DNA of 64,000 nucleotides from an uncultured delta proteobacterium (GTDB lineage: Bacteria; Desulfobacterota; Desulfobacteria; Desulfobacterales; JAFDCJ01), in the NCBI GenBank assembly GCA_963769935.1, contig CAVYNY010000015.1:32001-96000 (forward strand), in the 5' to 3' direction. This document shows positions 14,498-55,365 of the stretch, one piece after another. The notes beneath the pieces are model-generated. The model searched no databases, was not told the origin of the DNA, and saw only the letters and a list, made by a program, of their open reading frames with translations. The position numbers and the translations under genes are program-made. The first letter of the stretch is position 1; every line of letters begins with the position of its first letter.

Positions 14498-14744
14498 AAA
14501 ATCCCAAATTCCAAGCTCCAAATAACAAATACATTCCAAATCGCAATAACCAATGACCAAAACAGGTCTATCAATGGAAGTAAATCATAATTATTTTCTC
14601 GTGTTTTAAAACTTCTGTGCCTTCGTGATAAGGAATCGCGTAGTTATCTGAAGCGATAACCAAAAATAATTTAATTCCGTTTGGAGCTTTGTATTTGGGT
14701 CATTGCGATTTGTTTGTAATTTGGAATTTGTTATTTGAGATTTT
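14498..14744. repeat. Inverted-repeat element with heptamer-based (CAAAT-type) arms, between porA and porB
   Basis: Left arm aaaatcccaaattccaagctccaaataacaaatacattccaaatcgcaataaccaatgaccaaaac; right arm gtttggagctttgtatttgggtcattgcgatttgtttgtaatttggaatttgttatttgagatttt. Confidence 0.85.
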
Positions 14745-14834
14745 CAAGCTGCTGATACTTGAAACCTCATTCTTTCCGGCACATTGGTAATGGCCGCCAA
14801 GTCGCGAGATTGAGCCTCCCCGCATCCCAGCCTT

Positions 14835-16025
14835 TTAGGGTAATATCGCCGGATTCAGGTCCACCCATTCGGCCTCGGGCAGCGGCTGTCCTGTGCGGGC
14901 AATCTCTTCGGCCCGATCAACCAGCCGGCCGATGGTGCCGGCGTTGATTTCCCGCCCGCCGAGTCCGGCGATAAAATCAATTACCAGGGGCGCACCCGGC
15001 CGTCCGCAAAGTTTGGCTTTCAGATCCAAACCGATCGCGCCTTCGCTGCCCATGGACAGATTGGCATCCATGACGGCCAGCACCCGTGCGTTTTTGACGG
15101 CCTGCAGAATCTCTTCATGGGGAAACGGCCGGTAGCAGCGGATCTTAACCAGGCCGACATTTTTGCCGGCGCTCCGCATATCGTCTACCGCATCTTTGAT
15201 TGTTCCCGTCACGGAACCCACGGCGACCAGAATGACATCCGCATCGCCGGTCCGGTAAGCTTCCACCAGCCCGCTGTTATCACGCCCGGTCAATTCGGAC
15301 ACTTCATTCAGAATTGCTTTAATGCGGGGTTTCTGCTCCACCATGGCCTGGTGAATCGCATACTTGAACTCCATCATGACATCGGCCTCCGCATAGGAGC
15401 CCCAGCTCTTGGGATCGGTCGGATCCAGAAAGTGCTCCGGCTTGAAAGGCGGCAGGAATTTATCCACCTCGGCCTGATCGACATAGGTCACCCGCTCATA
15501 AGAGTGTGTCAGCACCCAGCCGTCCATGCAAACCATGACCGGCAGCATGATTTTGGAGTCCTCGGCAATCTTGAAGGCCGCCAGATGCATATCGTAGGCC
15601 TCCTGGGAGCTTTCGACGTAAAACTGAATCAGCCCGGCATCTCTCAAAGACATGGTGTCCTGGTGATCGACCTGAATATTGATCGGCGCCGAAATCGATC
15701 GGTTTACGCCGGTAATCACAAACGGCAGCCGCATGCCCGCACTGGCATAGAGTACCTCGGCCATCAGGAGCAGGCCCTGAGAGGAAGAGGCCGTATAACC
15801 GCGGCTGCCCGCGGCCGAGGCGCCCGACACCACACTGGCGGCCGAAAACTCGGACTCAACCCTGATATATTCGCTTTTGAGTTCACCATCGGCCACCATC
15901 CGGGCCAGCGCTTCGACGATGTGGGTCTGGGGGCTGATGGGAAACGCCGAAATCACGTGCGGCCGGCAGGAACTAACCGCCCGAGCCACCGCCTCGGAAC
16001 CTTCCACAACTTGAATGTTCTCCAT
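14835..16025 (-). CDS. porA: 2-oxoacid:ferredoxin oxidoreductase alpha subunit
   Basis: EGSEAVA, AFPISPQTHI, VESEFSA, TASSSQGLLLM, DHQD, CMDGWVLTH, GLGGRE. Confidence 0.93.
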   Translation of the reverse strand: MENIQVVEGSEAVARAVSSCRPHVISAFPISPQTHIVEALARMVADGELKSEYIRVESEFSAASVVSGASAAGSRGYTASSSQGLLLMAEVLYASAGMRLPFVITGVNRSISAPINIQVDHQDTMSLRDAGLIQFYVESSQEAYDMHLAAFKIAEDSKIMLPVMVCMDGWVLTHSYERVTYVDQAEVDKFLPPFKPEHFLDPTDPKSWGSYAEADVMMEFKYAIHQAMVEQKPRIKAILNEVSELTGRDNSGLVEAYRTGDADVILVAVGSVTGTIKDAVDDMRSAGKNVGLVKIRCYRPFPHEEILQAVKNARVLAVMDANLSMGSEGAIGLDLKAKLCGRPGAPLVIDFIAGLGGREINAGTIGRLVDRAEEIARTGQPLPEAEWVDLNPAILP

Positions 16026-16028
16026 GAC

Positions 16029-16286
16029 TTACTTATCCTCCGGAACCATTTCGATGGCATTGGCCGTGCATTCATACGCGCAGATGCCGCAGCCCTTGCA
16101 GAAATCATAATCGATGACATATTGGTCGTTGATGACGCGGACGGCATCATCCGGGCAAACCTCTTGGCAGATACCGCACTGTTTGCAAGTTTCCTGGTCG
16201 ATGACTGGACGTTGATCCCGCCAGTCGCCGGTTTTATATTTTAAAGAGCTGCCGCCCTTGACAACCGCACCTTGAGTGATTTTCAT
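16029..16286 (-). CDS. porD: 2-oxoacid:ferredoxin oxidoreductase delta subunit (2x[4Fe-4S])
   Basis: KTGDWR..RP, CKQCGICQEVCP, DYDFCKGCGICAYEC. Confidence 0.95.
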   Translation of the reverse strand: MKITQGAVVKGGSSLKYKTGDWRDQRPVIDQETCKQCGICQEVCPDDAVRVINDQYVIDYDFCKGCGICAYECTANAIEMVPEDK

Positions 16287-16834
16287 GATACCTCCCCGAC
16301 AAATGCAAGATAACTTTCCTTCACAACCCGGGCGTTTTTCTCGCCGAGTTCGCCCGGAAACTTACTTTGAACCGCCTTCAACACGGCTTCCAGGGACAGC
16401 TCCCGGCTTAAGCCGGCAAACACCCCCAGCAGCGCCGTATTGATGATCGGACGGCCCAGAATACGCCGGGCCAGATTATCGGCCGAGATCGCAAACGCAT
16501 TGGGGTGCTGGATGCCCAGCTCACGGACATCCTTGTCCGTGTTGATCAGTATGGCCCCGCCCGGTTTCAGCCCGTGCTCGACGTCCACCTCTTTTTGGAT
16601 GGTTGCATCCTGAACGATGACGTAATCGGGCTCGTGAATGTGGCTGCGAACCCGGATGGGCCCGTCACTGAGGCGGCAAAAGGCCACGATCGGTTTACCC
16701 CGCCGTTCGCCGCCGCCGCCTAAAAAAGGGAAGGCCTGGCCGTATTTGCCGTCCTCCAGGGCTGCAATCGCCATAAACTGGGCCAGCACCAGAGAGCCCT
16801 GCCCGCCCCTGCCGTGGATGCGAATTTCTTTCAT
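16283..16834 (-). CDS. porC: 2-oxoacid:ferredoxin oxidoreductase gamma subunit
   Basis: MKEIRIHGRGGQG, GERRGKP, PDYVIVQD, INTALLG. Confidence 0.95.
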   Translation of the reverse strand: MKEIRIHGRGGQGSLVLAQFMAIAALEDGKYGQAFPFLGGGGERRGKPIVAFCRLSDGPIRVRSHIHEPDYVIVQDATIQKEVDVEHGLKPGGAILINTDKDVRELGIQHPNAFAISADNLARRILGRPIINTALLGVFAGLSRELSLEAVLKAVQSKFPGELGEKNARVVKESYLAFVGEVS

Positions 16835-16891
16835 ATGGATTTGCCTTTTTTTTTGCTTATACACCAATGCGAAGATTTAATTAATATCATA

Positions 16892-17944
16892 TTAGACAAC
16901 TGCCGGCAAGGCAACGTCCAGCTTCTCGGCCCAGGGTTCCAGCAAAGGCATGATGGTCGGCGACAATTCGATCCCGTTGGCCAGATACTTCCGGCGCAGG
17001 GCCAATCCATGCCGGCCGGGCAGTCGTACGCCCGTCCCGTCGGGTGGACTTGCGGCGTTGCGGCAGGCTGCCGCCAACCAACCGGACTCCCGTTTAAATT
17101 TCGCCAAGCCTCCGAAAGCCGCTGGATCGATGATTTGCATAAAAACGGACGCACCCCAGCGCTCCGGCCCGTCGGCGCGGCCGAACCCTCCCAGGCTCGC
17201 CGTCAGCGCTTCGACCAGCAATCCCAGCGCAAAACCTTTGTGCCCCGATTCCAATCCGCCCAGAGGTAGAATGGCCCCCGGCGGATCGGTGAAAAGAACC
17301 GCCGGATCGCTGCTGCCGCGACCCTGATTATCGACCAGCCATTCATGGGGCAAGTGCTGCCCGGCCTCATAAAGCCGGGTGGTCAGGCCGTTGGTGGTCG
17401 TGGAGGCGCTGATATCGATCAAGATCGGTTCGCCGTCGGTAGGAAAACCGGCCGCGATTGGATTCGGCGTGTAAACCGGCGTACACCCTCCGTACGGCGT
17501 TACCGACCCGCAGCTGGGATCCGACGACATCAGCAGCATCACAAGCCCGCGATCCGTCGCCCGTTTGAGATAGGCCTGCAGGCAGGCAATGTGATGGCTG
17601 CGCCGGATAACCACCGTCATGACCGGATGCACGCTAATTCGTTCAAATGCCAGTTCCATGGCGCGGGTAACCAACCAGGGGCCCGGCAAATAATCGCCGT
17701 CCCAGGTGACCGCCGCGCCGCGATCCTGCAGTACTTTGGGCTCGCCGGTCGCGGCCATGCCGCTCTCACCGAGCTCTTTCAGATAGGCAGCCAGCAGCTG
17801 CAAGCCATGGGTGGTATGCCCCATCAGATCGCCTTCCACCAGAATATCGGCGACCACGGCCGCCCGTTCGGACGGCAGATCCAATTTTTCCAACAGCGAT
17901 TTAGCGAAGGCGATCAGCTCGCCGGCTTCATAGCGTATACCCAT
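16892..17944 (-). CDS. Ldh_2 family oxidoreductase (malate/L-lactate/sulfolactate dehydrogenase-like)
   Basis: DLMGHTTHG, RRSHH, TPNPIAAG, DISAS, LPLGG...GHKGFAL, RLPG. Confidence 0.9.
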   Translation of the reverse strand: MGIRYEAGELIAFAKSLLEKLDLPSERAAVVADILVEGDLMGHTTHGLQLLAAYLKELGESGMAATGEPKVLQDRGAAVTWDGDYLPGPWLVTRAMELAFERISVHPVMTVVIRRSHHIACLQAYLKRATDRGLVMLLMSSDPSCGSVTPYGGCTPVYTPNPIAAGFPTDGEPILIDISASTTTNGLTTRLYEAGQHLPHEWLVDNQGRGSSDPAVLFTDPPGAILPLGGLESGHKGFALGLLVEALTASLGGFGRADGPERWGASVFMQIIDPAAFGGLAKFKRESGWLAAACRNAASPPDGTGVRLPGRHGLALRRKYLANGIELSPTIMPLLEPWAEKLDVALPAVV

Positions 17945-17968
17945 TTCTTGCTCCTTTGGGGGGGTAAT

Positions 17969-18254
17969 GGTTCTGCGTTCAGGGTTCAGAAGTTCAGGGT
18001 TTAAGGTTTAAGGTCAAAGGTTAAAGGCTACCAGGCTGTGATATTTTCCGATTGGTTACCTCGATTATAGATTATTGCCTGACCGAGTTCATCGCGGTTA
18101 AAAACCGCTCCCACGTGGTTTTTAAACTGTTATGAGGTTCTAAAATGGAGTTTTTTCACTATGAGCTATCAGCTATGAGCTTTTTTTTGACACCTGAAAC
18201 CTTTATCCTTTAACCTTTTACCTTTATCCTTCAACCCTGAACCTCTGAACCCTG
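17969..18254. repeat. Inverted-repeat element with 7-8-nt unit arms (GGTTCAG/AAGGTTT types) containing nested repeats
   Basis: Left arm ggttctgcgttcagggttcagaagttcagggtttaaggtttaaggtcaaaggttaaagg; right arm cctttatcctttaaccttttacctttatccttcaaccctgaacctctgaaccctg. Confidence 0.8.
18091..18114 (-). repeat. GTGG-type REP singlet
   Basis: Minus strand GTGGGAGCGGTTTTTAACCGCGAT (GTRG tetranucleotide plus hairpin). Confidence 0.7.
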
Positions 18255-18280
18255 CTTGTGAGGGCGAAGCCCCAAACCTT

Positions 18281-19070
18281 TCAACCTTCTGAAATCACTT
18301 TCCTCAGTTTATCCCCGTTGGTCTTCCACCAGTTGAACAAAATTGAGAGGTCCGTCGCGAGGTTGAAATGGCGCACTCCCAGATCGAGATAGTATCTGGC
18401 CTCATCGACGCTGTTGATCTCGGCCCGCGCCGGGACGCCCATGTTAAGAGCCGTTTCAAATACCCGGCGTTCGACCGCTCTCACTTCCGGCGAGTTTCTG
18501 GCACCCGGCCGACCGATGCTCATGGAATAGTCCACCGGTCCCCATTGAATCATATCAATGCCCTTGACCGCAAGGATTTCCTCCAATCGTTCAACCGCCG
18601 GATGACTTTTCGATCATGATCATCACGATAACATCTCTGAGCGCCTGAACGTAGTCGCCCGATCCACCGTAGCCCATATATGCGAAACGCCGCATCCCGA
18701 CACCATGTATACCGCCGTCCGCGGGTGTTTCGGGGCGCACAATGTCTACACACTGCTTTACATCATCAACCGTCCGGCAATCGGCAAACAAGACGCCCTG
18801 AAAACCGGCCCCGATACCGCGCTGGGCCAGAAAGCCCCGCGGCTCCTGATCGATCTTGATGATGGCGGACAGGTCATGCAACTCGGCCGCCCGGCAAAAG
18901 TTATCCAGCGCATACAAATCAAACGGGGCATATTCGGCCAGAAACTCAACGTAGTCAAACATACCGGTGTGCCCGACAGCCTCCACCACCGAAGGCCAGG
19001 AGCTGTGAACCCGGGTGCCGATAGACGGTTGGCCGTCCCGCAACAGCTTGCGCAGTTTATTGGGTCGCAT
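18281..19070 (-). CDS. HpcH/HpaI aldolase family protein (apparent frameshift near 18603)
   Basis: MRPNKLRKLL, DYVEFLAEYAPFD, IMIEK then, after a frame change, AVERLEEILAVKGIDMIQWGPVDYSMSIG. Confidence 0.88.
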
Positions 19071-19144
19071 TTGCTTTACCTCCAGACATAAACCGGATCG
19101 ATAACCGAAAAAAAGGCTAATTCATAAAATAGCTCGGACTTTCA

Positions 19145-19210
19145 GGAGTGTTGGAGTGTTGGATAAAAGGCATCAATCCGCCGACCAGGACTCCCTTGCT
19201 CCAGTACTCC
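19145..19210. repeat. Small inverted-repeat element with 8-nt units (GGAGTGTT / CCAGTACT-like)
   Basis: ggagtgttggagtgttgga ... ccaggactcccttgctccagtactcc. Confidence 0.6.
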
Positions 19211-19225
19211 GATTTTTATTTGAAG

Positions 19226-19609
19226 TTAACCCAGCTCCTGGACCAGTTCAATGGTTATATCCTCCGGTCCTCGGAAAAAGGCAATTCTCAAGCCGGGGAT
19301 ATTTTTAGGTTCAATGAAAAACGAAAAGCCTCTCTTTTTTAAATCCCGGTAGGCCGCGTCGACGTCTTCGACCTGCAGTCCGAGGTGGTCGTAGCCGAAT
19401 CTCGCCTGGGAAGCATCGCCGACCATCATTTCATCTTCCCGGGCAACCCGCAGATTGACGGTGGTTCCCTGAAGATCGAGCGAAGCGCCGTCGGCCGTTC
19501 CGAATTTCAGACGCGCAATCAGCTCGGCCCCTAAAGCGCCGGTAAAAAAATTGATCATACCCTCCAGATCCTGGCAAATCAAATGAACGTGGTGCAAACG
19601 GTAAGTCAT
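19226..19609 (-). CDS. VOC/glyoxalase family protein
   Basis: LHHVHLIC.D, YDHLGLQVEDV, FFRGPEDITIELVQ; GGAGG RBS. Confidence 0.92.
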   Translation of the reverse strand: MTYRLHHVHLICQDLEGMINFFTGALGAELIARLKFGTADGASLDLQGTTVNLRVAREDEMMVGDASQARFGYDHLGLQVEDVDAAYRDLKKRGFSFFIEPKNIPGLRIAFFRGPEDITIELVQELG

Positions 19610-19802
19610 TGTGTACCTCCTAGCCCGGACAAGCCGGAACAGCTTTTGTAATGCATTGCTACAGGAGAGGCCCTTAACACAAGGTGGACGGGGTTACAAT
19701 AGGATTCTTCCTTGACAACAATCAGCGATATTTATATATCTCCAGACGTGGCTAACAAGCAAACCGCTGATGACGCATTGTAAATATATGGAGGCGCTCG
19801 TC

Positions 19803-20573
19803 ATGAATAACTTATTCAGCCTGGAACGGAAAGTGGCTATTGTTACCGGCGGCAACGGCGGGATCGGGAAAGGAATTGCGCGGGGTCTGGCCTCCATGGG
19901 AGCCGACCTTGCCATCGTCGGCCGCAATTTGCAGAAAACCGAGGCAGCCGTCAATGAGATCAAGGAAGCGTTCGGAGTCCGGGTCGTCGGTCTGATATGC
20001 GACGTGACCGATGAAAAAGCGGTTAAACAAATGATCGGCAAAGTCCTCCAGGATTTGGGCCGCATCGATATCCTGGTAAATAATGCCGGTATCAACATTC
20101 GCAGGATGCCGCAGGATTACGAGACCTCCGAGTGGGATCAGGTGCTGGCCGGCAATCTGCGCAGCGCGTTTTTGTGCGCCAAATTCGTCTACCCGGCGAT
20201 GAAAGCCGCCGGCGGGGGAAAAATCATCAACATCGGCTCTATGACGACGATTTTCAGCGGGGCCAAGCTGGCACCCTACAGCGCCAGTAAAGGCGGCATC
20301 GTTCAGATGGCCCGCAGTTTGGCCTGCGCCTGGGCTGAGGACAACATCCAGGTCAATGCCATCCTGCCGGGCTGGATCGATACCGAACTGACCCGCCGCG
20401 CCCGCATAGACATCGAAGGCCTTCATGAAAGGGCCGCTGCCAGGACCCCCGCGGGACGCTGGGGTGAACCGCGCGATCTCGCGGGGGCTGCGATTTTTCT
20501 GGCAAGTCCGGCCTCGGATTTCATCACCGGCGTCGCCCTGCCGGTGGACGGCGGATATTCGATCAGTATTTAA
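19803..20573 (+). CDS. Short-chain dehydrogenase (KduD / gluconate 5-dehydrogenase-like)
   Basis: TGGNGGIG, NNAG, NIGS, YSASK, VNAILPG, RTPAGRWGEP, VDGG. Confidence 0.92.
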   Translation: MNNLFSLERKVAIVTGGNGGIGKGIARGLASMGADLAIVGRNLQKTEAAVNEIKEAFGVRVVGLICDVTDEKAVKQMIGKVLQDLGRIDILVNNAGINIRRMPQDYETSEWDQVLAGNLRSAFLCAKFVYPAMKAAGGGKIINIGSMTTIFSGAKLAPYSASKGGIVQMARSLACAWAEDNIQVNAILPGWIDTELTRRARIDIEGLHERAAARTPAGRWGEPRDLAGAAIFLASPASDFITGVALPVDGGYSISI

Positions 20574-20662
20574 TTTAAGAACCGGTTTGCCCCATTCGAA
20601 TGCCTCCGGTAAAGAATCCCGACTCAGCTTCCTGCCCGGAGGCTTACAGCCCGGAGGGAGAC

Positions 20663-20700
20663 GACCAGGTTTTCAATGTTTGACCAGGTTTTCAATGTTT
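20663..20700 (+). repeat. Perfect 19-bp tandem duplication GACCAGGTTTTCAATGTTT x2
   Basis: Direct reading; 17 bp of the unit recur at 34552-34568. Confidence 0.85.
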
Positions 20701-20748
20701 GAATAGATAGGCAGTCCCGATTCATCCGGTTCAGAAAGAAACTCTGTT

Positions 20749-21702
20749 ATGAACTCGTTAACCGTATACTTCCGCCCGCCGGAAGAATTTGTCACCCAGC
20801 TGGGCAATATTGCAGAAGAAATCGAAATAAATGTCTGCCCGAAGCGGGAAGAGCTGATACCCTGTCTGCCCCGCACGGAGATCCTGATCACGCTTTTTGC
20901 TTTTCCGGATGCGGAGCTGATCCGGTTGGCGCCCAACCTGAAATGGATTCAGGCCCTGACTGCCGGAGTTGATCTCTTTCCCTTAAATGAAATCAAAAAA
21001 CAGGGTATTATTCTTACCTGCGGCCGCGGCATACATAAAATTTACATGGCCGAGTACGCCATCGGGGCGATGATCAACCTGGCCCGCAATTTTCATCTGA
21101 TGTTCCGAAACCAGCTCAAGGGCAAATGGGACCGCTCGATTGCTCAGGACGAGATATACGGCCGGACAGCGGGTATTATCGGTCTGGGCAGCATCGGGCA
21201 GGAAATTGCCCGCAAGGCATCAATTCTGGGCATGCGGGTCATCGGTGTTAAAGATACTCCCCGGCCGCTCGAATGGGTCGATCAGGTCTATGGTCCGATG
21301 GAGATGGGTGAGGTTTTTAGACAAAGCGACTACGTCATTAATCTTTTGCCGGATACGCAAGCAACCAGAGGCCTGATCGATAAAACGTTTTTCGCCCTGA
21401 TGAATAAATCCGCCTGCTTTATCAACCTGGGCCGCGGATCCACCGTCAATCAAGCCGATCTGGTCGATGCCCTGCGGGCGAAAACGATCCGCGCCGCGGT
21501 CAGCGATGTTTACGAAGAGGAGCCGCTGCCTGCGAACAGCCCCTTGTGGCAATTGGAGAATGCGATTCTCACCCCGCATATGGCCGGCGTCTCACCGCAG
21601 TATCTCCAGCGGGCAATGGATATTATCCGGCACAATCTTAACGTCTACCTCAGCCGTTCGGGGCAGATGATCAACGTCGTCGATCCGGCGAAGGGGTATT
21701 GA
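20749..21702 (+). CDS. D-isomer-specific 2-hydroxyacid dehydrogenase
   Basis: LKWIQALTAGVD, GLGSIG, INLGRG, DVYEEEPL, ILTPHMAG. Confidence 0.94.
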   Translation: MNSLTVYFRPPEEFVTQLGNIAEEIEINVCPKREELIPCLPRTEILITLFAFPDAELIRLAPNLKWIQALTAGVDLFPLNEIKKQGIILTCGRGIHKIYMAEYAIGAMINLARNFHLMFRNQLKGKWDRSIAQDEIYGRTAGIIGLGSIGQEIARKASILGMRVIGVKDTPRPLEWVDQVYGPMEMGEVFRQSDYVINLLPDTQATRGLIDKTFFALMNKSACFINLGRGSTVNQADLVDALRAKTIRAAVSDVYEEEPLPANSPLWQLENAILTPHMAGVSPQYLQRAMDIIRHNLNVYLSRSGQMINVVDPAKGY

Positions 21703-21711
21703 AGCAAAGGA

Positions 21712-24700: not shown

Positions 24701-24802
24701 GATCTGCAGCCTGCTGAGAGAAACGGCGCCGAGCAGGACCAGGATCAGGGTTACCATGGTCGTAAAAATCGGGCGCTTGACGCTGAAACCCGGTAGATTC
24801 AT
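21712..24802 (-). CDS. RND efflux permease (AcrB/AcrD/AcrF family), apparent frameshift near 22430
   Basis: [46 protein letters not shown]; ORFs 22406-24802 and 21712-22428 join by removing one base. Confidence 0.93.
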
Positions 24803-26013: not shown

Positions 26014-26242
26014 GGTAAAATACCTTTTTGGTTGTCCTTAAAATTTGACACTGCCGAAAATATGTGCGGTTTCACCCGGCACAAAGTATTAATATTGCAC
26101 TTTCAGGGCTGATTTTGCAATGAAAAAATGGGTTGTCATCATGAAGCAAAAAACTATATAGTCTGCCAGGCACGTTCTAAAACTTAAAAATCGGAGCAAA
26201 GTTGCCGCCATCGGGCGGGATAGGGATTCGTGGGGATCTGAT

Positions 26243-29533: not shown

Positions 29534-29750
29534 AAAATCCCAAATTTGACACGACTGAGCTCGTCGCAGGCCAAATACCGATGCTGTAAATTCCAAGCAC
29601 CAAATTCCAAATAAATTTCAAATCCCAATACTCAATGACCAAAATTTTTGGTGCGCACTGAAGTGGATTGACCGCTGGTAGTTGTTTGGAATTTCGGATT
29701 TTGGTAGTTGAGTTTTATTTGTTATTTGGGTTTTGTTATTTGGGATTTTC
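29534..29750. repeat. CAAAT-heptamer inverted-repeat element with nested insertion in its left arm
   Basis: Arms homologous to 14498-14744; left arm interrupted by tgacacgactgagctcgtcgcaggccaaataccgatgctgt, flanked by AAATT on both sides. Confidence 0.82.
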
Positions 29751-30882: not shown

Positions 30883-31201
30883 GACAGAAGACAGAAAATA
30901 GATGACAGAATTTCTGAGTTCAGCCCCGCCGGGCCTCTCCGAACTACAGGCCCTACCCTATCCCCGATCTGTATGGCTGCGGCTGGAAGCAAACCCGAAT
31001 CTATGTCAAAGAGCGGAATATGGCACAGCGCCAATCAATTTGTCAACCCGTATCCGGCGACAAAAGATAGAAGGTGAGAGGGTGAGAAGTTGGGAAGTTG
31101 GGATGAAGGGCAAAGAGCATAGCGCATAGCGCATAGCGTCAAACTCAATCAACCCGTTCAACTTTTATTCAATACGTTTCACAATCCGCAATCCGCAATC
31201 G
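30883..31201. repeat. Cluster of different short tandem-repeat tracts
   Basis: GACAGAA-type (30883-30908), GAAGDTGR-type (31063-31102), GCATAGC x3 (31115-31138), CAATCCG-type (31182-31201). Confidence 0.7.
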
Positions 31202-32756: not shown

Positions 32757-32967
32757 AATGCCTAAAATGCGCTAAAATGCCTGAGATGCCTAAAATGCAA
32801 TGGATTGCTGGTTCATAAGTCCTTTGCCAGTGATGGTTGGTTACGAATATATATCGGTCCTGTGCAAAGCAAACTTAAGAAATTTTCGTTTGAATTCTTT
32901 CATTATTTAATGGATAACATGCCGTAATTTTGATAATTTTAGGCAATTTAGGCAATTTAGGCATTTT
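32757..32967. repeat. Inverted-repeat element with 9-nt units (AATGCCTAA / TTAGGCAAT)
   Basis: aatgcctaaaatgcgctaaaatgcctgagatgcctaaaatg ... ttttaggcaatttaggcaatttaggcatttt. Confidence 0.8.
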
Positions 32968-34317: not shown

Positions 34318-34587
34318 AGTACACCCCCCCTATCGTTCAGTGCCGACGCTGATATCCCATAAACCCTGCCGATCTTAACCGGCCATCATTATAATAATAA
34401 CCGGCCAAGGTCAAGCGACTCTGTCTCACAGCAACATCAAGGTAAAATTTAAATCGACGTCTTCCTAAAGACCGCCTGACAGTTTACTTGTAAAGGACTC
34501 TATGATAGTTATTTTGAGTCAATCAGGGAGAGATAGGATCCTGGCCCAAAGGACCAGGTTTTCAATGTCAGACTAAAGGAGGGCCCG

Positions 34588-38068: not shown

Positions 38069-38281
38069 GAATGTCGAACATCGAACGTCGAGCATCGAAC
38101 GTCCAATATTGCGGCGCTGCGCTTTATCTATTTTAAAACTGGCCAACTGCAGAATCCACCAAAGGCGGACAATCTTCGAATGGTCGATGAGCTCGTGCAG
38201 CACACACGCCGCGTACTGTTTGGTATTTTTTAAATGGACAGAATTCAATATTCGATGTTGGACGTTCAATGTTCGATGTTC
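38069..38281. repeat. Inverted-repeat element with heptamer arms (CGAACRT / ATGTTCG)
   Basis: gaatgtcgaacatcgaacgtcgagcatcgaacgtccaatattg ... caatattcgatgttggacgttcaatgttcgatgttc. Confidence 0.85.
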
Positions 38282-38376: not shown

Positions 38377-38388
38377 TAATCTATATTT

Positions 38389-41145: not shown

Positions 41146-41179
41146 GTCTTTCTGAGCCTGGCGCTAAGAGGAACTTTTT

Positions 41180-42277: not shown

Positions 42278-42327
42278 TGCCGGAATTTGGCACTCCGATC
42301 TCGTGTGAAATTTCAATGAAGGTCTGT

Positions 42328-42484
42328 GGAATGGATTCGATTTTTATTTTTATTTAGACAGGATTATCAGGATTATCAGGAATTTTTTCGCCTGCGGCGA
42401 GGAATCTTTCGGCCGAAGGCCGCCATATCCTAACGATCCTGTTGATCCTGTCCAATTATTTTCTTTAAAATAAGAATCCATTCC
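42328..42484. repeat. Nested inverted-repeat element (outer GGAATGGATTC arms, inner 9-nt CAGGATTAT arms)
   Basis: ggaatggattcgattttta / taaaataagaatccattcc enclosing gacaggattatcaggattatcagga / tcctaacgatcctgttgatcctgtc and central GC hairpins. Confidence 0.8.
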
Positions 42485-42678
42485 TTTTTTTACTTCCAAT
42501 TGAAAAGTTTTTTATCTGATCAGACTGAACGCTTGCGGCCAGCGGCCGAGTTCATATCTAACGGACCAAGTCGCTTTTAAGAATAACTGGGGAATTTAAG
42601 GATTCAGGGATTCAATATGGAAACGTCTTCCTATTTAAATCCGAAATCCACATTCCGCATTCCGAAATCAAATGAATT

Positions 42679-45003: not shown

Positions 45004-45088
45004 TCCGGAGATTACATAATGGTAAAATTTCGGCCGTTAAGATACGAAGGCCTGAGCGAGGATTATAAAGCCGGAAGGGGGTTGCACG

Positions 45089-47163: not shown

Positions 47164-47830
47164 AAAAATATCAATTTTGATTGTCGATGATCATCCTCTG
47201 TTTCGTGAAGGTCTTAAGACGATTATCGGGCGCAGCCGACTTTATGAAGTGGTCGGCGAGGCCGGCAGCGGACAGCGGGGCCTGGAGATGGCCCGCAAAA
47301 TCAAACCGAACCTGATGATGATCGACTTGTCGCTGCCGGATATGAACGGCATGCAATTGACCCGCAAAATTCGCGCCGAGCTGCCTGAAACAACGATCAT
47401 CATTGTCACCATGCATGCCAAAGTCGACTACATCGCCGAAGCATATCAGGCCGGCGCCACCGGATACGTGATCAAGGAGTCTGCAGCCGAAGGCCTTTTA
47501 AAAGGGATTGAGACCGTGTTGAAAGGCGAGTACTTTCTGGACAGCGCCGTCTCCTCGCAGGTGGTTCAAACCTTGATGAAACTGCCGCGCAAAGAGGCAA
47601 AAATCACTGATGCGCAGTACGGCTCCCTGACTGCCAGAGAACAGGAAATTTTAAGACTGCTGGCCGAAGGGTTGTCGTCACGAAATATTGCGGAAAGGCT
47701 TTTCATCAGCCCCAAGACCGTGGAGAATCACCGTGCCAACATCATGAATAAACTGGACCTGCACAGCACCATCGAGCTGGTCCGCTATGCCGCCAAACTC
47801 GGCCTGATCGACACGGATCTTTGGACGTGA
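47156..47830 (+). CDS. NarL/LuxR family response regulator
   Basis: IVDDHPLFREG, IDLSLP, GYVIK, LTAREQEIL...ISPKTVENHRANIM. Confidence 0.96.
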   Translation: MPEKISILIVDDHPLFREGLKTIIGRSRLYEVVGEAGSGQRGLEMARKIKPNLMMIDLSLPDMNGMQLTRKIRAELPETTIIIVTMHAKVDYIAEAYQAGATGYVIKESAAEGLLKGIETVLKGEYFLDSAVSSQVVQTLMKLPRKEAKITDAQYGSLTAREQEILRLLAEGLSSRNIAERLFISPKTVENHRANIMNKLDLHSTIELVRYAAKLGLIDTDLWT

Positions 47831-47863
47831 AATATGCGTTGCGGGGTGACGCACTGGCGCGCC

Positions 47864-48061
47864 AGCTCATAGCTCATAGTTGATAGGAAAAAGGAGAAAT
47901 AGGCAGGGCAGAGGGTGGATGAGAAATTGGTGCTTACGAACTTAAGAACTTACGAGCTCCGCAGCGTCCCAGCCTCTTACCTTCTGTTCTTCTCATCTTC
48001 TGAGCTTCTCAATTCCATCTGCTGCCCGCTGTCATCTATTCTCTGTCTTCTGTCATCTGTC
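47864..48061. repeat. Cluster of short tandem-repeat tracts
   Basis: AGCTCAT x2, CTTAMGAA x3, CTTCT-rich 8-mers, CTGTCWT heptamers (48029-48061). Confidence 0.65.
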
Positions 48062-48186
48062 TTCAAATGCGCAGCATAAACTAATTAATCAGCCGGACCT
48101 TCGATCTTGATATATTCTTCAGTTATCAAGGAGCAAACTACAACCCTGAATATGCCGTTTCTCAGGGTGGATTAATATTTACACGT

Positions 48187-48317
48187 TGTAAAATAATCCG
48201 ACAGAGCCGGTGCGCATCCGGGCCGGCGCTAATTTGTCGGATCGCCTTTCTTTATAAATGATTCCAAAAAGTTAGAAACATACGCCCTGCCCCGCTAATT
48301 GTGGCATACCTGTTGCT
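48187..48317 (+). promoter_or_regulatory. Sigma54 promoter with upstream activator-like site, ahead of the hydrogenase operon
   Basis: TGGCAT-ACCTG-TTGCT at 48302-48317; TGT-N11-ACA (TGTAAAATAATCCGACA) at 48187-48203. Confidence 0.78.
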
Positions 48318-48408
48318 TTTAAAATTGGTGAAAGACCGGAATATGTGGGTTGTCAGGTAAAAATGTATTGGAAATGATGGTCAACCCCATGGCAGAGGAG
48401 ATAATCCT

Positions 48409-48675
48409 ATGCTGGTCAGGAACTGGATGTGCCGCCCCCCCGTCACTGTCAAGGCAGACGCCCCCCTTCAAACCGCTGTTGAGCTTTTGACCGGCCACCA
48501 TATTCATGTATACATCCGCGCCTATGGCCTGGATTTGCCGAATCGGCTTCGGGTCAAAGAGGCGATCAGAGCTAAAGCTGAATTACTGTATGCAGTGGAC
48601 CATGAAGAGAATACACGGGAAATCTATCAGAATGCAACCATAGGCAACCCTACAGCACCGGAGGGCACGCAATGA
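48409..48675 (+). CDS. Internally deleted CBS+ACT (AcuB-like) protein
   Basis: CBS start MLVRNWM.RPPVTV joined in frame to ACT-end VYIRAYG...LLYAVDHEENTREIY; GAGGAG RBS; overlaps the next ATG. Confidence 0.65.
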   Translation: MLVRNWMCRPPVTVKADAPLQTAVELLTGHHIHVYIRAYGLDLPNRLRVKEAIRAKAELLYAVDHEENTREIYQNATIGNPTAPEGTQ

Positions 48676-49079
48676 AAGAAAAAGCCGCAATTTTGGTGGT
48701 GGATGATGATCCGGACATCAGAGACTCAATCGCCATCATCTTAACCAGCCACAACTACACTGTCCATACAGCCTCAAACGGCAAAGAAGCCGTCCAAGCA
48801 CTGGAGGAGAAAAAACCGGATCTCATGATTCTTGACATCATGATGGCCACCGACACTGAAGGGTTCGACCTCGCCTATGACCTGAGGGAAAGACCCGAAT
48901 TTAAAAGCCTTCCGATCATCATGCTGACCAGTTTTCTCGCGAAGGTCCGGGAAGAAGGTCCCGGCGATTTCGCCTATATCCTGGGCGAGCAGTGGCCGGC
49001 TCAATGGTTGCTGGAAAAACCTCTGGACACAAAGAAGCTGCTGGACAAAATCGAAGATATTTTAAAGGAACGCGCCTAA
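48672..49079 (+). CDS. Single-domain response regulator (receiver only)
   Basis: LVVDDDPD, ILDIMM, IIMLTS, EKP; no output domain. Confidence 0.93.
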   Translation: MKEKAAILVVDDDPDIRDSIAIILTSHNYTVHTASNGKEAVQALEEKKPDLMILDIMMATDTEGFDLAYDLRERPEFKSLPIIMLTSFLAKVREEGPGDFAYILGEQWPAQWLLEKPLDTKKLLDKIEDILKERA

Positions 49080-49104
49080 TCTGAAGACGGGGAGCCGGAG
49101 ACTC

Positions 49105-51018
49105 ATGGAAGTCATGGGAAATTTCATTCGGCAGGAGGATATCCGGATTCACCGGCAGTCCGTCCTGGAGGAATCCCAGCAGATCCAAAGGCTGATCAAA
49201 ATGCGCTGGTGGGTCCCCGCCCTGATTGCCGCCGCCGTTGGACTGAGTGTACTGGCCGGCTTCGACGACCGGTTCCTGCTGCTGCTTTGGGCGGCCGGCT
49301 ACATTCTGGGGTACAATCTGCTGTGCTACCGGATGAGCCTGAAGCCGGCATCGGCCCCCGAGGCCATGCGCAACGAATGGCGGCGTTCCGTCTACTGGCA
49401 GTCGGCTCTGGATTGCAGTGCCGTATGCTTGCTGGCCTTTCTCACCGGCGGAATCTCCAGTCCGGTGGCTTTTCTCTTAGTAATTCCCATTTTCGTGGTC
49501 GCCACCCGTTTAGCCCCCCGCCCGGCCTTAGTGTTTACGGCCTGCGTATTGATCGGCGTCACGCTGTTTGCCGGGTTGGAGCAGGCCGCCTGGCTGCCGC
49601 GCCGTTTTATGATCCTGCAGCCCCAAACAGCAGCCACCACACGGTCTCTCGATCAGTTTCTCCTCGGCCTTTTGACGATCTACCTTACGGTGGCGACGAT
49701 CGCCTTGCTGGGTGTGTCGATGTCCAATGCGGTCCGCCGAAAAACTCGCCTGCGGGAAGATCACTGTGAATCGCTGACGCGCCTCAATCAAAAATTCCGG
49801 CGGTTGTTTTCCATGATCCAAACCATCGGATCAACGCCCAACCTCAATCAGGTCTTAAATATCGTCAGTTCGCAAACCGCCGCCGTAATGAATGTGAAAG
49901 GCATCACCATCAAACTGCTCAGTGAGGATGGCAAATATCTACGGTATGCCGCCGCCCATGGGCTGCCGGATGCCTTCGTCAGGGAAAAGTTGGTGGAAGT
50001 CGGGAAAAGCCCGTTGAACAAGCGCATCATTGAAGGTGAGCCGTTTATTACCGGCAATGTATCGGCCGGGGAAATGTTTCAATTCGGGGAAGTCCTGGCC
50101 GAAGCCCGGATCAAATCCGTCCTGTTTTTGCCGCTGCGCCTCGCGGGCAAGGTCATCGGCATCCTGGGAGCCTATTGCATTCTCCCCGATCGCTTTACGG
50201 ATGAAGATGTGGATTTCTTCCGCCTGGTTGCCGAACTGGTCGCTATCGCCCTCGAAAATGCCCGGGCCTATGAAGCGGTGGAGAAACTCGTCCGGGAAAG
50301 ATCCTGGTATATGCTGCGTGTGGCGCATAATCTGCGCGCTCCCCTGGCAGGCATGCTGAGCATTCTGGAGGTCGTTCGCGGAGGGTATCTCGGGGGCTTG
50401 AATGACGAGCAGCAGGAATACCTGCGCCGTCTCGACCGCCGCTCCCGCACGATGCTCATGCTGGTCAACGAGCTGATGACCCTGGCCAAAAGCAGGGAAG
50501 AAAAGAAAACCGGCGAAACCAAATCCACCGAACCGGAACTGGTGGCTCGGCGCATCCGTCGAACGTTTCAGGATAGATCGGCTGAAAAAAAAATCAACTT
50601 CAGTGTAACGGCCGCCGCCGATTTGCCGCCCATTCAGGGAGATCTGGAAATGGTGGAGCAAATTCTTGAAAATCTTGTCTCCAACGCCATCAAATACACG
50701 CTGGCCGAGGGAACGGTTTCCGTCAGGTTCTCCCGGGCCGCCGGTATGGTTCGAATGGAAGTCATCGATTCGGGCATTGGCATTTCAAAGACCGACAGAT
50801 CCAGGCTGTTTACGGAATTCTTTCGGGCCGAGAATGCGCGCAATGTGGAGAAAACCGGCACCGGCCTGGGACTGGCAATCGTCAAGGAATTTGTCGACAA
50901 ACTCGGTGGACGGATTCTGGTGGAAAGCGAAGAAGGAATGGGTACGATCTTCGTAGTCGATCTGCCCACTGCAACGCATGGAAAAGGAGGTCAGCATGAC
51001 AGCGTCGCAATCACTTGA
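49105..51018 (+). CDS. Membrane-bound GAF sensor histidine kinase
   Basis: About six TM helices (TGGISSP), GAF domain, H-box AHNLRAPL, NLVSNAIKY, DSGIGI, GTGLGL. Confidence 0.92.
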   Translation: MEVMGNFIRQEDIRIHRQSVLEESQQIQRLIKMRWWVPALIAAAVGLSVLAGFDDRFLLLLWAAGYILGYNLLCYRMSLKPASAPEAMRNEWRRSVYWQSALDCSAVCLLAFLTGGISSPVAFLLVIPIFVVATRLAPRPALVFTACVLIGVTLFAGLEQAAWLPRRFMILQPQTAATTRSLDQFLLGLLTIYLTVATIALLGVSMSNAVRRKTRLREDHCESLTRLNQKFRRLFSMIQTIGSTPNLNQVLNIVSSQTAAVMNVKGITIKLLSEDGKYLRYAAAHGLPDAFVREKLVEVGKSPLNKRIIEGEPFITGNVSAGEMFQFGEVLAEARIKSVLFLPLRLAGKVIGILGAYCILPDRFTDEDVDFFRLVAELVAIALENARAYEAVEKLVRERSWYMLRVAHNLRAPLAGMLSILEVVRGGYLGGLNDEQQEYLRRLDRRSRTMLMLVNELMTLAKSREEKKTGETKSTEPELVARRIRRTFQDRSAEKKINFSVTAAADLPPIQGDLEMVEQILENLVSNAIKYTLAEGTVSVRFSRAAGMVRMEVIDSGIGISKTDRSRLFTEFFRAENARNVEKTGTGLGLAIVKEFVDKLGGRILVESEEGMGTIFVVDLPTATHGKGGQHDSVAIT

Positions 51019-51466
51019 AATGGAGCAGCTGGAGGAAATTCTGCAGGCCTATCGAGGGCAGAAGGGAGCGGTCATTCCCGTGCTGCAAAAAGCCCAGAAG
51101 ATCCACGGCTATTTGCCGGAAGAGGTCTTGCAGCGGATTGCGCGCGGATTGCGGGTTCCGATCAGTCGCATTTACGGCGTGGCGACGTTTTATTCTCAAT
51201 TTTATCTGACCCGCCGGGGCCGCCACGTTGTTCGCCAATGTGACGGGACCGCCTGCCATGTGCGCGGGTCGGGTCAAATAGTTGAAAAAATCGAAAAGGA
51301 ATTGGGCATCCAGGCCGGCGGCACCACCCCGGATTATAAGGTCACCTACGAGGTGGTATATTGTCTCGGATCCTGCGGCCTGGCTCCGGTGGCAACCGTC
51401 GATGGTGCGGCGGTCGGCAAGCTGGCTCCGGAGCGGATGGCCGTCCTGGTTCAACAGTTGGACTAG
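50996..51466 (+). CDS. hoxE: NuoE/HoxE/HydC-like [2Fe-2S] subunit
   Basis: IPVLQKAQ..HGYLP, YGVATFYSQF, CDGTAC, CLGSC; AAGGAGG RBS. Confidence 0.9.
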   Translation: MTASQSLEMEQLEEILQAYRGQKGAVIPVLQKAQKIHGYLPEEVLQRIARGLRVPISRIYGVATFYSQFYLTRRGRHVVRQCDGTACHVRGSGQIVEKIEKELGIQAGGTTPDYKVTYEVVYCLGSCGLAPVATVDGAAVGKLAPERMAVLVQQLD

Positions 51467-51559
51467 ATTATTGTCGGGCAGCCGTTTTCCGAGTCATGGC
51501 GGGGAGTTGAGATCCACCTGCAGCGGCCGCCGTGCGGTAAAAGGAGGGAGAGGTGCAAT

Positions 51560-51967
51560 ATGCCAAAAATCATGACGATAGACGATTTCAAGAAGCTTCG
51601 CCAAGACGCCCGGCGGGATATCCGGGTACGCTCGCAGACCGGCACTAAAATCATTATCGGCATGGGCACCTGCGGCATTGCCGCCGGCGCCCGGGAGACC
51701 ATGCGCGCCATACTGGAAGAGCTGAACAAACGGCACATCGACGCTCACGTCACCACCATCGGCTGTATCGGCAGGTGTGCGTTTGAGCCGCTGGTGGACG
51801 TGGAGCAGGCCGGCGGCTCCCGCATCACCTACGGCAATATCCATCCGGACATGGTGCCCCGTCTGATTGAAGAGCACCTGATTCAGGGTCGGGTCGTTGA
51901 TGACTGGGTGGTGGCGCGCCTGCCGCAGACCGCTCGCGAATCGAAGGAGGAAATGCCAAATGTCTGA
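51560..51967 (+). CDS. Thioredoxin-like [2Fe-2S] ferredoxin-fold subunit (HndB/HydD-like)
   Basis: IGMGTCGIAAGA, GCIGRC.FEPLVDV, EHLIQG. Confidence 0.88.
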   Translation: MPKIMTIDDFKKLRQDARRDIRVRSQTGTKIIIGMGTCGIAAGARETMRAILEELNKRHIDAHVTTIGCIGRCAFEPLVDVEQAGGSRITYGNIHPDMVPRLIEEHLIQGRVVDDWVVARLPQTARESKEEMPNV

Positions 51968-54900
51968 ATCATTATATCGTGCCAACGTGCTCATCTGTCA
52001 CGGAACCGGATGCACGGCATCACAGGCGGAGGGTGTCCACGAAGTGTTGCAGAAAGAACTTGTGCGGCAGGGACTGGAAAACGAGATTCAGGTTATCCAG
52101 ACCGGCTGCCGCGGCTTCTGCGCCATGGGTCCGATTCTGATGATCTATCCCGAAGGCATCTTCTACTGCCAGGTCGCCCCCGCCGACGTGGCCCATCTGG
52201 TGGAAGAAACCCTGCTGAAAGGCCGTCTGGTCGAGCGCCTGCTTTACCGCGAACCGCTGGAACATAAAGCCGTTCCATACTACCAGCAAATCCCGTTTTA
52301 CACGAAGCAAAAACGAATCGCCCTGCGCAACTGCGGCCTGATCGATCCGGAAAGCATTGAAGAATACATCGCCCAGGACGGCTATGCCGCGCTGATCAAA
52401 GTGCTTTCCGGGATGACGCCCCAGATGGTGCTCGACGAAGTCAAAGCTTCGGGCCTCCGGGGGCGCGGCGGCGCCGGTTTCCCGGCCGGTCTGAAGTGGG
52501 AGTTCACCCGCCGCGCAGCCGGAGAACCCAAATATGTCATCTGCAACGCGGATGAAGGTGATCCCGGCGCTTTCATGGATCGCAGCATCATCGAGGGCGA
52601 CCCCCACAGTCTGATTGAAGGCATGACCATTGCCGCCTATGCCATCGGCGCCGCGGAGGGATATGTCTATTGCCGGGCCGAATACCCCCTGGCCATCCGG
52701 CGGCTTCAGGTGGCCATTGAGCAGGCCGAGGCGTATGGACTGATCGGCGGCAACATTATGGGCACCGACTTTGGTTTTCAGCTGCATATTAAGGAAGGCG
52801 CCGGGGCATTCGTTTGCGGAGAGGAGACGGCGCTGATCGCTTCGATCGAGGGCCGGCGGGGCGAACCCCGCCCGCGTCCGCCATTTCCGGCGGTTGCCGG
52901 TCTCTGGGGTATGCCGACCAACATCAACAATGTCAAAAGCTACGCCGTCGTGCCCCGGATCATATCGCAAGGCGCCGAGTGGTTTGCCGGCATCGGTTCG
53001 AAAAGCAGCCCGGGAACCGCTATCTTTGCGCTAACCGGCAAAGTCAAGAACACGGGCCTGGTTGAAGTGCCCATGGGCATCACCCTGGGGGAGATTATCT
53101 TCGACATCGGCGGCGGCATCCTCAAGGACAAGCAGTTCAAGGCCGTGCAGACCGGCGGACCTCTGGGGGGCTGCATCCCGCCGCAGCATCTCAATGTCAA
53201 GGTTGATTTTGACTCCCTCAAAGAAGTCGGGGCGGTAATGGGCTCCGGCGGCATGATCGTGGTGGATGAAGACACCTGCATGGTGGAATTTGCCAGGTTC
53301 TTCTTGACCTTTGCCACCGCGGAAAGCTGCGGCAAGTGCATCCCCTGTCGATCCGGCGGCAAACGCATGCTGGAGATTTTAAACCGCATCTGCCGGGGGC
53401 AGGGCCAACGGCAGGACCTCGACAAAATCCGCGCGTTGGCAGCCGGCATGGAATCAAGCTCCCTTTGCGCGTTGGGGCAGTTGACGCCCGGTCCCGTGAT
53501 GGCGGCCCTGCGCTATTTCGAGGATGAATTTGTGGCCCATATAGAGGATCGGCGCTGTCCGGCCGGATCCTGCAAAGAGTTGGTGCCGGCGCGCTGCTTG
53601 AATGCCTGCCCGGCAGGCGTGGATGTGCCGGCTTACATCAGCCTCGCGGCCCAGGGACGGTATGCCGAAGCCCTGGAGATTCACCGTGAACGCAATCCCT
53701 TCGCCATGGTCTGCGGACGTGTCTGTCCGGCATTCTGCGAGCAGCGCTGCCGCCGCAGCGATATTGACGAGCCGGTGGCGATTCGTGCCGTCAAACGCTT
53801 CATGGCCGATCACGAAGCCGGCCATCCCTGGACGCCGCCCAAAGCAGGCCCCGGACGGCCTGAAAAGATCGCCGTCATCGGCGCGGGTCCCGGCGGTCTG
53901 ACCGCGGCGCTGCGCCTGGCGCAAAAGGGGTATCCGGTGACGGTTTACGAGGCCCTGCCCGTTCCCGGCGGCATGCTGGCGGTAGGGATCCCGGCGTATC
54001 GGCTGCCGCGGGCGATTCTCAATCAGGAGATCGAAAGCATCAAGCGCGCCGGGGTCGACATCGTCTGCAACCGGACCCTCGGCCGCGACTTTGAGCCTGG
54101 ACGATCTTTTCGATCGCATGGGATACGCATCCGTGGTTTTGGCCATCGGTGCACATAAGGGTTTGCGGATGGGAATTAAAGGCGAAAACCTGCCGGGGGT
54201 CTATGACGGGGTCGAGTACCTGCGAAACTGCGCCCTGGGAAAGGCACCTGAGTTCAGCGCCCAAAAAGTGGCCGTCGTCGGCGGCGGCAACGTCGCCATT
54301 GATGCCGCACGCACCGCCTGGCGCCAGGGCGCCGCCCAGGTGGATGTCATTTACCGCCGCACCCGCCGGGACATGCCCGCCTATCGCGAGGAAATCGAAG
54401 CCGCCGAGCAGGAAGGCATCATATTTCATTATCTGGCGGCGCCGATTCGCGTTTTAGGTGACGAGCGCGTTGCGGGCCTCGAAATACAGAACCAACAGCT
54501 GTCGGAGTTTGACGCCAGCGGCCGGCGGCGCCCGATACCGATTGAGGCCTCCACCTTCACTCTGAAAATCGAAGCGCTCATCCAGGCGATCGGACAGCAG
54601 CCGGATCTGCAAGGCATCGCGGAAGCAGCGCTGGAAACCAACCGCAACGCCACAATTCGGGTGGGCCAAGATCTGGCAACCTCCCGCCGCGGCGTTTTCG
54701 CCGTCGGGGACGCGGTTTCCGGCCCGGCTTCAGTGATTGAAGCCGTGGCCCATGGCAACCGGGCGGCAGAGGCGGTCGATCATTTCCTGCGTACCGGAAC
54801 GACGGCAAAATTGGACGCTGCATTAGATGTGCATCTTCCCGAGCTCACCTGGAACATGCAGGACTACAGTCACGCGGCCCGCATCCAGCCCGGCCAATTG

Positions 54901-55056
54901 GCCCTGTCCGAGCGAAGCGGCAGCTTCCGCGAAGTAGAGCTGCCGGTTGCGGAAGAAAAAATTTGCGAAGAGGCCAAACGCTGTTTGCGCTGCGATCTGG
55001 AATGGCAGGCCGGCCGGGCCGGTGTAGCCGAAGAGAAAGGCGTCCGAGCGGCTTAG
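51960..55056 (+). CDS. NuoF/HoxF/HydB-like FMN subunit fused to a GltD/NfnB-like Fe-S/FAD/NADP(H) module (apparent frameshift near 54092)
   Basis: CHGTGC/GCRGFC, GRGGAGFP, NADEGDPGAFMD, GAFVCGEETAL, CGKCIPC, then CLNACP, CGRVCPAFCEQRC, GAGPGG; after the frame change GGGNVA, YRR, GD, EAKRCLRC. Confidence 0.9.
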
Positions 55057-55131
55057 CGTCAAATGCTGTATTCCTTAAATTGGTTAAAAAAAGTGAAAGC
55101 GGACAACTAAACTATATGTGAGTCTTGGAAA

Positions 55132-55365
55132 AAAATTACAAGCACCAAACAACAAATAACAAACAATATTTAAATTCCAAACTCCAATGACCCAAACGGG
55201 TTTTTACGTGCGGCAAAGTAATTCCTTTGGTCTCGACTCAGGCAAAAGGAAGCTAATCAGAAATGGTCGAATCGACCTGATTAGCCTATGTTTAGGATTT
55301 CTTTCGAATTTGAAGTTTGTGATCTGAGATTTATTTGGAATTTGGAATTTGAGATTTGGAATTTT
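55132..55365. repeat. CAAAT-heptamer inverted-repeat element inside the hydrogenase operon
   Basis: Left arm aaaattacaagcaccaaacaacaaataacaaacaatatttaaattccaaactccaatgacccaaac; right arm ...gatttatttggaatttggaatttgagatttggaatttt; internal hairpin gctaatcag...ctgattagc. Confidence 0.85.

What the first reader, a model, noticed from the sequence alone, without database searches (positions are those of the whole stretch)
14498..55365. Many inverted-repeat elements share one architecture but use unrelated 7-9-nt tandem units
Seen: at least eight elements whose two arms are short degenerate tandem arrays facing each other across a unique spacer. They are the CAAAT-type (14498-14744, 29534-29750, 55132-55365), GGTTCAG/AAGGTTT-type (17969-18254), GGAGTGTT (19145-19210), AATGCCTAA (32757-32967), CGAACAT (38069-38281) and CAGGATTAT (42357-42452). 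Unit sequences differ but the design is the same, and none carries an ORF. From recollection, similar arrays flank small four-helix-bundle and GxxExxY genes in related genomes; I cannot verify that here. Inference: empty cassettes of a poorly described mobile or recombination system that recognises structure and periodicity rather than one sequence.
Basis: partly seen in the sequence, partly recalled or inferred. Interest (0 to 1): 0.7.

Follow-up and report, generated by a model that had tools for sequence, protein, structure and literature searches.

The report
Gene-less copies of repeat-armed cassettes
The mirror-image repeat elements between these genes are gene-less copies of small cassettes that carry a four-helix-bundle or nuclease-like gene between the same arms; they come and go between close relatives and are likely spread by proteins that read each family's own short DNA word, which would explain the long-noted 7-base repeats of bacteria.

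Summary
All eight elements are real. They belong to about 527 such elements in this genome; 1174 of 4033 gaps carry an arm. Arms have fixed inward polarity (510 vs 37). Corrections: several spacers are not unique (19 further whole-length copies of the 14498 element, 13 of the 42357 element), and elements nest. All six word families also flank a four-helix-bundle (PF05635) or GxxExxY nuclease-like gene in this genus; 81 of 93 such genes have inverted arms, against 32 of 770 control genes. Word follows protein clade. One element is an internally deleted cassette. One window junction shows empty, single-arm and full alleles. There is no excess of target duplications, no RNA-strand bias and no compensatory pairing, so the arms look like recognition words rather than maintained stems. 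No competence promoter was found. The mobilising step is inferred; closest analogues are REPIN/RAYT and Ssn/NTS. This scan noted the design in at least 8 other genomes; my paper searches found no description of the gene-arm link.

The parts
14498..14744 (.). Gene-less element between porA and porB; word family w23, whose cognate is a four-helix-bundle cassette (L111, L116); 19 further whole-length copies with sharp ends
14449..14765 (.). Outer, decayed pair of arms of a second family enclosing the 14498 element (nesting); the same outer family stands at this junction in G007 and G013
17969..18254 (.). Element with compound arms between a frameshifted aldolase gene and a malate/lactate-type dehydrogenase gene; family w16 (four-helix-bundle cassettes L042, L044, L092, L094); site with empty, single-arm and full alleles
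19145..19210 (.). Short, decayed element with 8-nt units; word like that around this genome's own four-helix-bundle gene on C9; other families fill this junction in G009, G004, G005
29534..29750 (.). Gene-less element of the 14498 word family with its own spacer
30883..31200 (.).
32757..32967 (.). Element with 9-nt units; cognate four-helix-bundle cassette L108 (w05)
38069..38281 (.). Element with 7-nt units, like the arms of cassettes L097 and L103 (w27); followed by solo arms of other families to 38377
42300..42558 (.). Unit of about 260 nt whose core is the 42357-42452 element; youngest family seen (13 further copies); cognate GxxExxY cassettes L070, L079, L086 (w40)
47864..48064 (.).
55132..55365 (.). 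Gene-less element of the 14498 word family, second spacer subfamily with 5 further whole-length copies

Best explanation
These elements are gene-less derivatives of small cassettes in which a four-helix-bundle (PF05635) or GxxExxY nuclease-like gene sits between two inward-facing arrays of a 7-11-base word, and they likely spread because the cassette proteins read their own word on DNA and promote copying into new intergenic sites without a target duplication. Shown: the gene-arm link, the match of word to protein clade, loss of the gene by internal deletion, gain or loss at given junctions, nesting, and cargo genes that run with the host operon. Inferred: the PD-(D/E)XK protein nicks or cuts at its word (most likely on single-stranded DNA, as SsnA does at NTS), the Avd-like pentamer binds the word array, and host recombination completes insertion or replacement, probably during DNA uptake. 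Insertions survive where they spare the upstream stop codon and the downstream ribosome-binding site; arms then stretch by slippage and decay to solo arms.
For: Arms around 60 of 69 four-helix-bundle and 21 of 24 GxxExxY genes in the genus vs 32 of 770 small control genes; 23 of 29 scored loci across the phylum. 1198 of 1937 oriented arrays of this genome match a cassette's 5' arm in the same orientation, 78 in reverse. Word clusters on the protein trees: 39 changes vs 58.5 shuffled for 72 four-helix-bundle rows (quick tree), 11 vs 17.5 for 23 GxxExxY rows, 0 of 200 shuffles as low in each. Same word and clade at different loci: w16 at three, w23, w27 and w30 at two each. G000 C2:18140 keeps the first codons of the gene and both arms, where G008 has the whole cassette. 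Of 102 shared junctions with G008, 55 have arms in at least one genome: 14 same family, 10 different, 31 one side only. Cargo runs with the upstream gene in 72 of 76 loci. The D and E-x-K columns are conserved in 23 aligned GxxExxY proteins (Pfam PF13366). 7-8-mer arrays: 123 in 400 kb of 9 genomes with the genes vs 35 in 360 kb of 7 without. An arm-less four-helix-bundle gene follows a comEA-like gene in 6 genomes.
Against: No activity was measured. Gene and arms are physically linked, so the tree match may be co-inheritance only. The well-copied 14498 and 42357 families lack an intact cognate gene in this assembly. Many same-word cassettes are orthologues at one locus (w33, w17, w19), so intact cassettes move rarely. 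No shared promoter motif with competence genes: 0 of 99 cassette upstream regions reach 6 bits with the comM motif, and de novo search gave nothing above shuffles. The allelic series cannot tell insertion from stepwise deletion for each step. The four-helix-bundle protein has no known catalytic activity (my knowledge). The gene-rich vs gene-free genome comparison is small and not corrected for kinship; paired elements were 25 vs 7.
Confidence: 0.55

Rival explanations
1. One general machinery recognises hairpin or cruciform shape and periodicity, whatever the word; the cassette genes are passengers or act across families.
For: About 40 word clusters beside only 5 clearly intact four-helix-bundle genes and 1 GxxExxY gene in this genome; young families without an intact cognate gene; different families nest and replace each other at the same junctions.
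Against: Word follows protein clade; no better pairing within an element than between copies; left and right arms keep fixed differences across 20 copies.
Confidence: 0.2
2. The arms act in RNA, like 23S rRNA intervening sequences: the stem is cut by RNase III or tunes translation and decay of the neighbouring genes.
For: Same protein family as in IVS elements (PMC4990558 passages); cargo runs with the operon; 251 of 1056 arms whose outer neighbour is a gene end start within 3 nt of the stop, vs 17 of 839 for gene starts; folding is slightly stronger on the sense strand (-55.4 vs -54.0 kcal/mol, n=348).
Against: G-U vs A-C mismatches 323 vs 316 on the transcribed strand; fast turnover at given junctions argues against a kept regulatory role; no Rfam match; it does not explain spread to new sites.
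Confidence: 0.12
3. They are ordinary MITEs moved by known transposases (DDE, IS200/RAYT or IS91) or riding inside them.
For: Sharp ends and unrelated flanks in 20 copies; six identical truncated four-helix-bundle genes in G007, of which the two fetched share 1.3 kb with an IS91-type transposase gene; an unchecked scan note of heptamer arms inside an ISAs1-type MITE in this genome.
Against: No excess of flanking direct repeats in 331 gene-less elements; no arms within 1.2 kb of 11 Y1-transposase hits, and near 1 of 9 reverse-transcriptase loci; the genes between arms are not transposases. DDE families were not searched one by one.
Confidence: 0.1
4. Independent slippage-born microsatellites that pair by chance.
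For: A 16-nt tandem duplication within one arm differs between strains; solo arms are common.
Against: Fixed polarity, pairing far above controls, whole-element copies and the gene link.
Confidence: 0.03

Closest known systems
Ssn/NTS (SsnA, GIY-YIG ssDNA nuclease; PMC11893778, abstract and sections 7, 9, 12 read)
   Same: Small single-domain nuclease gene flanked by its own repeat; hundreds of gene-less copies; many protein-repeat pairs; proposed mobile origin; acts on incoming DNA
   Different: Here a PD-(D/E)XK protein or a four-helix bundle; arms are tandem words facing each other over 50-400 nt, not 20-50-nt hairpins; no activity shown
REPIN/RAYT (PMC3116915, passages read)
   Same: Inverted doublet with spacer as the replicating unit, singlets as decay products, each repeat class tied to one protein
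   Different: No RAYT beside the arms; the arm is not a conserved palindrome
23S rRNA intervening sequences with S23p (PMC4990558, passages read); Avd of DGRs (PMC10053308, passages read)
   Same: Same protein family PF05635, solved as 5-chain entries 2RLD and 2GSC, enclosed by inverted repeats
   Different: Here between protein genes, in hundreds of gene-less copies, with periodic arms and no RNA-strand bias
Heptamer repeats of Xanthomonas and Nostoc (PMC4692102, abstract, introduction and passages) and of Beggiatoaceae (PMC4679880, abstract and passages)
   Same: Intergenic 7-mers between co-directional genes, near stops or starts; inverted pairs in Xanthomonas; origin unexplained
   Different: Those papers treat one word per genome; the passages I saw link it to no gene family ('four helix' 0 hits in both)

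Membership tests
23S rRNA IVS | Lies inside an rRNA gene | tested here: not met
   Between protein genes; no Rfam hit in the window
23S rRNA IVS | PF05635 gene between terminal inverted repeats | tested here: met
   In cargo versions only
23S rRNA IVS | Excised from RNA by RNase III | not testable with these tools
   Only contigs were served; the indirect G-U test was negative
REPIN/RAYT | Inverted doublet with spacer, dispersed in intergenic DNA | tested here: met
REPIN/RAYT | Repeat stands beside a Y1 (RAYT) transposase | tested here: not met
   0 of 11 PF01797 hits have arms within 1.2 kb
Ssn/NTS | GIY-YIG nuclease flanked by its repeat | tested here: not met
   Cargo is PF13366 or PF05635
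Ssn/NTS | Site-specific ssDNA cleavage that alters transformation | not testable with these tools
   Needs purified protein; catalytic-type columns conserved
MITE of a DDE transposon | Terminal inverted repeats with sharp ends | tested here: met
MITE of a DDE transposon | Target site duplication | tested here: not met
   331 gene-less elements equal shuffles; 7 of 71 cassettes have 7 nt or more vs about 1.3 expected, an unresolved hint
MITE of a DDE transposon | Autonomous partner with the same ends | tested here: inconclusive
   33 ORFs between paired arms were listed and 6 such ORFs scanned against Pfam with no transposase; no full IS catalogue made
Bacterial heptamer repeats (descriptive class) | Excess of intergenic 7-mers, mostly between co-directional genes | tested here: met

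The most novel reading that the evidence does not exclude
A transposase-free class of replicators: dozens of protein-word pairs in which a small PD-(D/E)XK nuclease or an Avd-like pentamer reads a tandem DNA word and drives its cassette and gene-less copies into operon junctions during DNA uptake. It would be the source of bacterial heptamer repeats and a library of small sequence-specific nucleic-acid binders and cutters.
Probability: 0.35. Interest if true: 0.85.

Novelty: new variant of a known kind. Interest (0 to 1): 0.6.

Why it matters
Heptamer repeats in bacteria, and two very large families of small genes (PF05635, PF13366), each lack an explanation. Here they are one system with about 40 word-protein pairs in a single genus, so both questions become testable with cognate and foreign words. 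The elements occupy 29% of the longer intergenic gaps in this genome and supply or abut stop codons and ribosome-binding sites, so they reshape operon junctions quickly. If the nucleases are word-specific they would parallel Ssn as tools.

Tried and rejected
Competence-type promoter inside cassettes (lead from scan notes): not found; the comM motif is private to comM, dprA has no own promoter here, and the comEA search returned only a ribosome-binding site. RNA splicing as the cause of the 17958-18270 joint: disfavoured, since the contigs are about 95% identical, carry two extra letters, and DNA runs show a sister allele with the same left break; the exact joined form was not seen in the five DNA runs laid (tables were cut), so it is not excluded. 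Target duplication: none in gene-less copies. Leading-strand bias of mismatches: none (269 vs 275). Rfam: none. AlphaFold of the GxxExxY protein without an alignment: pLDDT 42.5, not used. The careful tree did not finish; the quick tree is reported. The inward-vs-outward count (235 vs 0) is partly circular and not used as evidence. G023 was dropped (contigs of 1.1 kb). In one search some one-sided cases are missed small genes or families absent from my lexicon. Arm families were labelled by unsupervised clustering, which splits or merges a few. Runs with small shares were not used for habitat.
Full report
OBSERVATION. The window is G000:C15:32001-96000 of an 8.0-Mb assembly. All eight elements are present as described and lie between metabolic genes. 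Six of 33 window gaps hold a paired 7-9-mer array against at most one in 100 control sets. In the genome, periods 7-9 dominate TRF output, 852 of 3945 arrays have an inverted partner against 321 with a direct one and 118 in random DNA, and merging gives 527 intergenic elements, mostly 50-250 nt: 389 between co-directional, 82 between convergent and 51 between divergent genes. Arms occur in 17 of 33 window gaps and 1174 of 4033 genome gaps over 60 nt. Within word families the same strand of the word faces inward in 510 tallies against 37. Spacers are not always unique: the 14498, 55132, 42357 and 38069 elements have 19, 5, 13 and 1 further whole-length copies; the 14498 family has sharp ends in unrelated flanks. 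Elements nest and stack.

CARGO. This genome has 7 TIGR02436 and 2 TIGR04256 hits. Five four-helix-bundle genes are enclosed by inverted arms, each with a different word; a sixth is a 5'-truncated remnant between arms. In 23 genomes of the genus all have TIGR02436 and 16 have TIGR04256 hits. I examined a subset (70 of about 170 TIGR02436 places plus own genes, and 30 GxxExxY loci); with both flanks available, 60 of 69 and 21 of 24 have inverted arms, against 32 of 770 ordinary small genes. Across the phylum 88 and 50 of 151 genomes carry the families and 23 of 29 scored top loci have arms. Each of the window's six families has a cargo version: L111 and L116, L042-type, G000 C9, L108, L097 and L103 with four-helix bundles, and L070, L079, L086 with GxxExxY; blastn links six of the eight window elements to these cassettes, while 19145 and 38069 rest on word likeness alone. 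The proteins are PF05635 (entries 2RLD, 2GSC) and PF13366, the latter with conserved D and E-x-K columns. Unsupervised arm clusters follow the protein trees, and four word-clade pairs occur at two or three unrelated loci, while others are single-locus orthologues. 1198 of 1937 oriented arrays in G000 match a cassette arm. At G000 C2:18140 both arms and the first codons of the gene remain where G008 has the full cassette, a direct case of gene loss by internal deletion. In that family the arm's inner units run into the start of the gene.

POLYMORPHISM. The porA-porB junction is empty in G001 and G010 and holds different inner families in G000, G007 and G013. At window 17944-18281, L206 has stop and start one base apart, its near twin L208 has one arm, DNA runs X12 and X13 join 17958 to 18220, RNA-library runs X6 and X10 join 17958 to 18270, L201 shows the 3' arm, and the window has the full nested form. 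In 360 kb of G008, of 102 shared junctions 47 have no arms, 14 the same family, 10 different families and 31 arms on one side only, with some misclassification. Several junctions, such as the one before the DnaE-like gene on C11 (named from its sequence by recall), receive different cassettes in different genomes.

MECHANISM. Against an RNA stem under selection: equal G-U and A-C mismatches on the transcribed strand and no better pairing within elements than between copies. For a tie to transcription: cargo runs with the upstream gene in 72 of 76 and the downstream gene in 55 of 62 loci, and arms crowd behind stop codons; I read this as use of host promoters and survival at tight junctions (inference). 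No target duplication in gene-less copies, a weak excess in cassettes. No arms near Y1 transposases. No competence promoter, but an arm-less four-helix-bundle gene follows a comEA-like gene in 6 of the 9 such loci inspected, which were chosen for this link; in G000 a hairpin and no such gene follow. Genomes lacking both families had fewer 7-8-mer arrays in a small sample (35 in 360 kb vs 123 in 400 kb). I commit to word-specific recognition on DNA with host recombination, at 0.55; the descent of the elements from the cassettes alone I put near 0.85. The main tension is that two well-copied families lack an intact cognate gene in this assembly.

COMPARISON. It works most like Ssn/NTS (PMC11893778; 12 of 14 supplements searched without a hit for these families) and REPIN/RAYT (PMC3116915), shares its protein with rRNA intervening sequences and Avd, and matches described heptamer repeats. 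It fails a defining test for the Ssn, RAYT, IVS and MITE families. Searches for a published gene-arm link found none: (listings only; the library lacks most subscription papers, and bioRxiv supplements are closed). This scan noted the same design in at least 8 other genomes and a competence link elsewhere; these are unchecked notes, and the promoter claim did not hold in this genus.

VERDICT. Real, large and dynamic; a new variant of the repeat-plus-small-gene kind, unpublished as far as searched, repeatedly seen in this scan. This window adds an allelic series, a deletion derivative, word-clade tracking and negative tests of the RNA-stem and competence-promoter readings. Interest 0.6.

Noticed in passing
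window:18281-19070: The aldolase gene is split by a frameshift; related strains lack one base at 18605 in seven of eight runs laid, so the break is private to this strain or an assembly error.
   Followed up: partly
L136, L137, L138, L141, L142, L143: An arm-less, conserved four-helix-bundle gene directly behind a comEA-like gene in six genomes; possibly a domesticated copy tied to DNA uptake.
   Followed up: partly
L125:1570-3147 (G007): IS91-type element carrying the 3' part of a four-helix-bundle gene; six identical hits in that genome.
   Followed up: partly
L132 and L180-L198, upstream of comM: Conserved spaced palindrome overlapping the promoter of comM across the genus, with no second strong site in G000.
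   Followed up: partly
window:12081-12136: GC-rich REP-like palindrome within a composite repeat region 11984-12221 with many copies; a separate repeat system.
   Followed up: no
window:20609-20684 and 34535-34579: Multi-copy motif of another kind; a matrix built for comM picked similar words upstream of several genes; possibly a regulator site.
   Followed up: no
window:18058-18145: Multi-copy palindrome inside the loop of the 17969 element, also at window 3640.
   Followed up: no
G000:C8:188127-189150 (L065): The genome's intact GxxExxY gene lies in an array of long direct repeats with inner palindromes rather than simple inverted arms.
   Followed up: no
L063, L071, L079: 8-9-nt direct repeats just outside the arms of three GxxExxY cassettes; possible target duplications.
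   Followed up: partly
L282 (G000:C10:311759-312941): RhuM-family gene between inward arms of one family; cargo or chance bracketing not resolved.
   Followed up: no
window:54159-55442: About 1.3 kb without a confident gene between two NADH-dehydrogenase-like subunit genes, holding the 55132 element.
   Followed up: no
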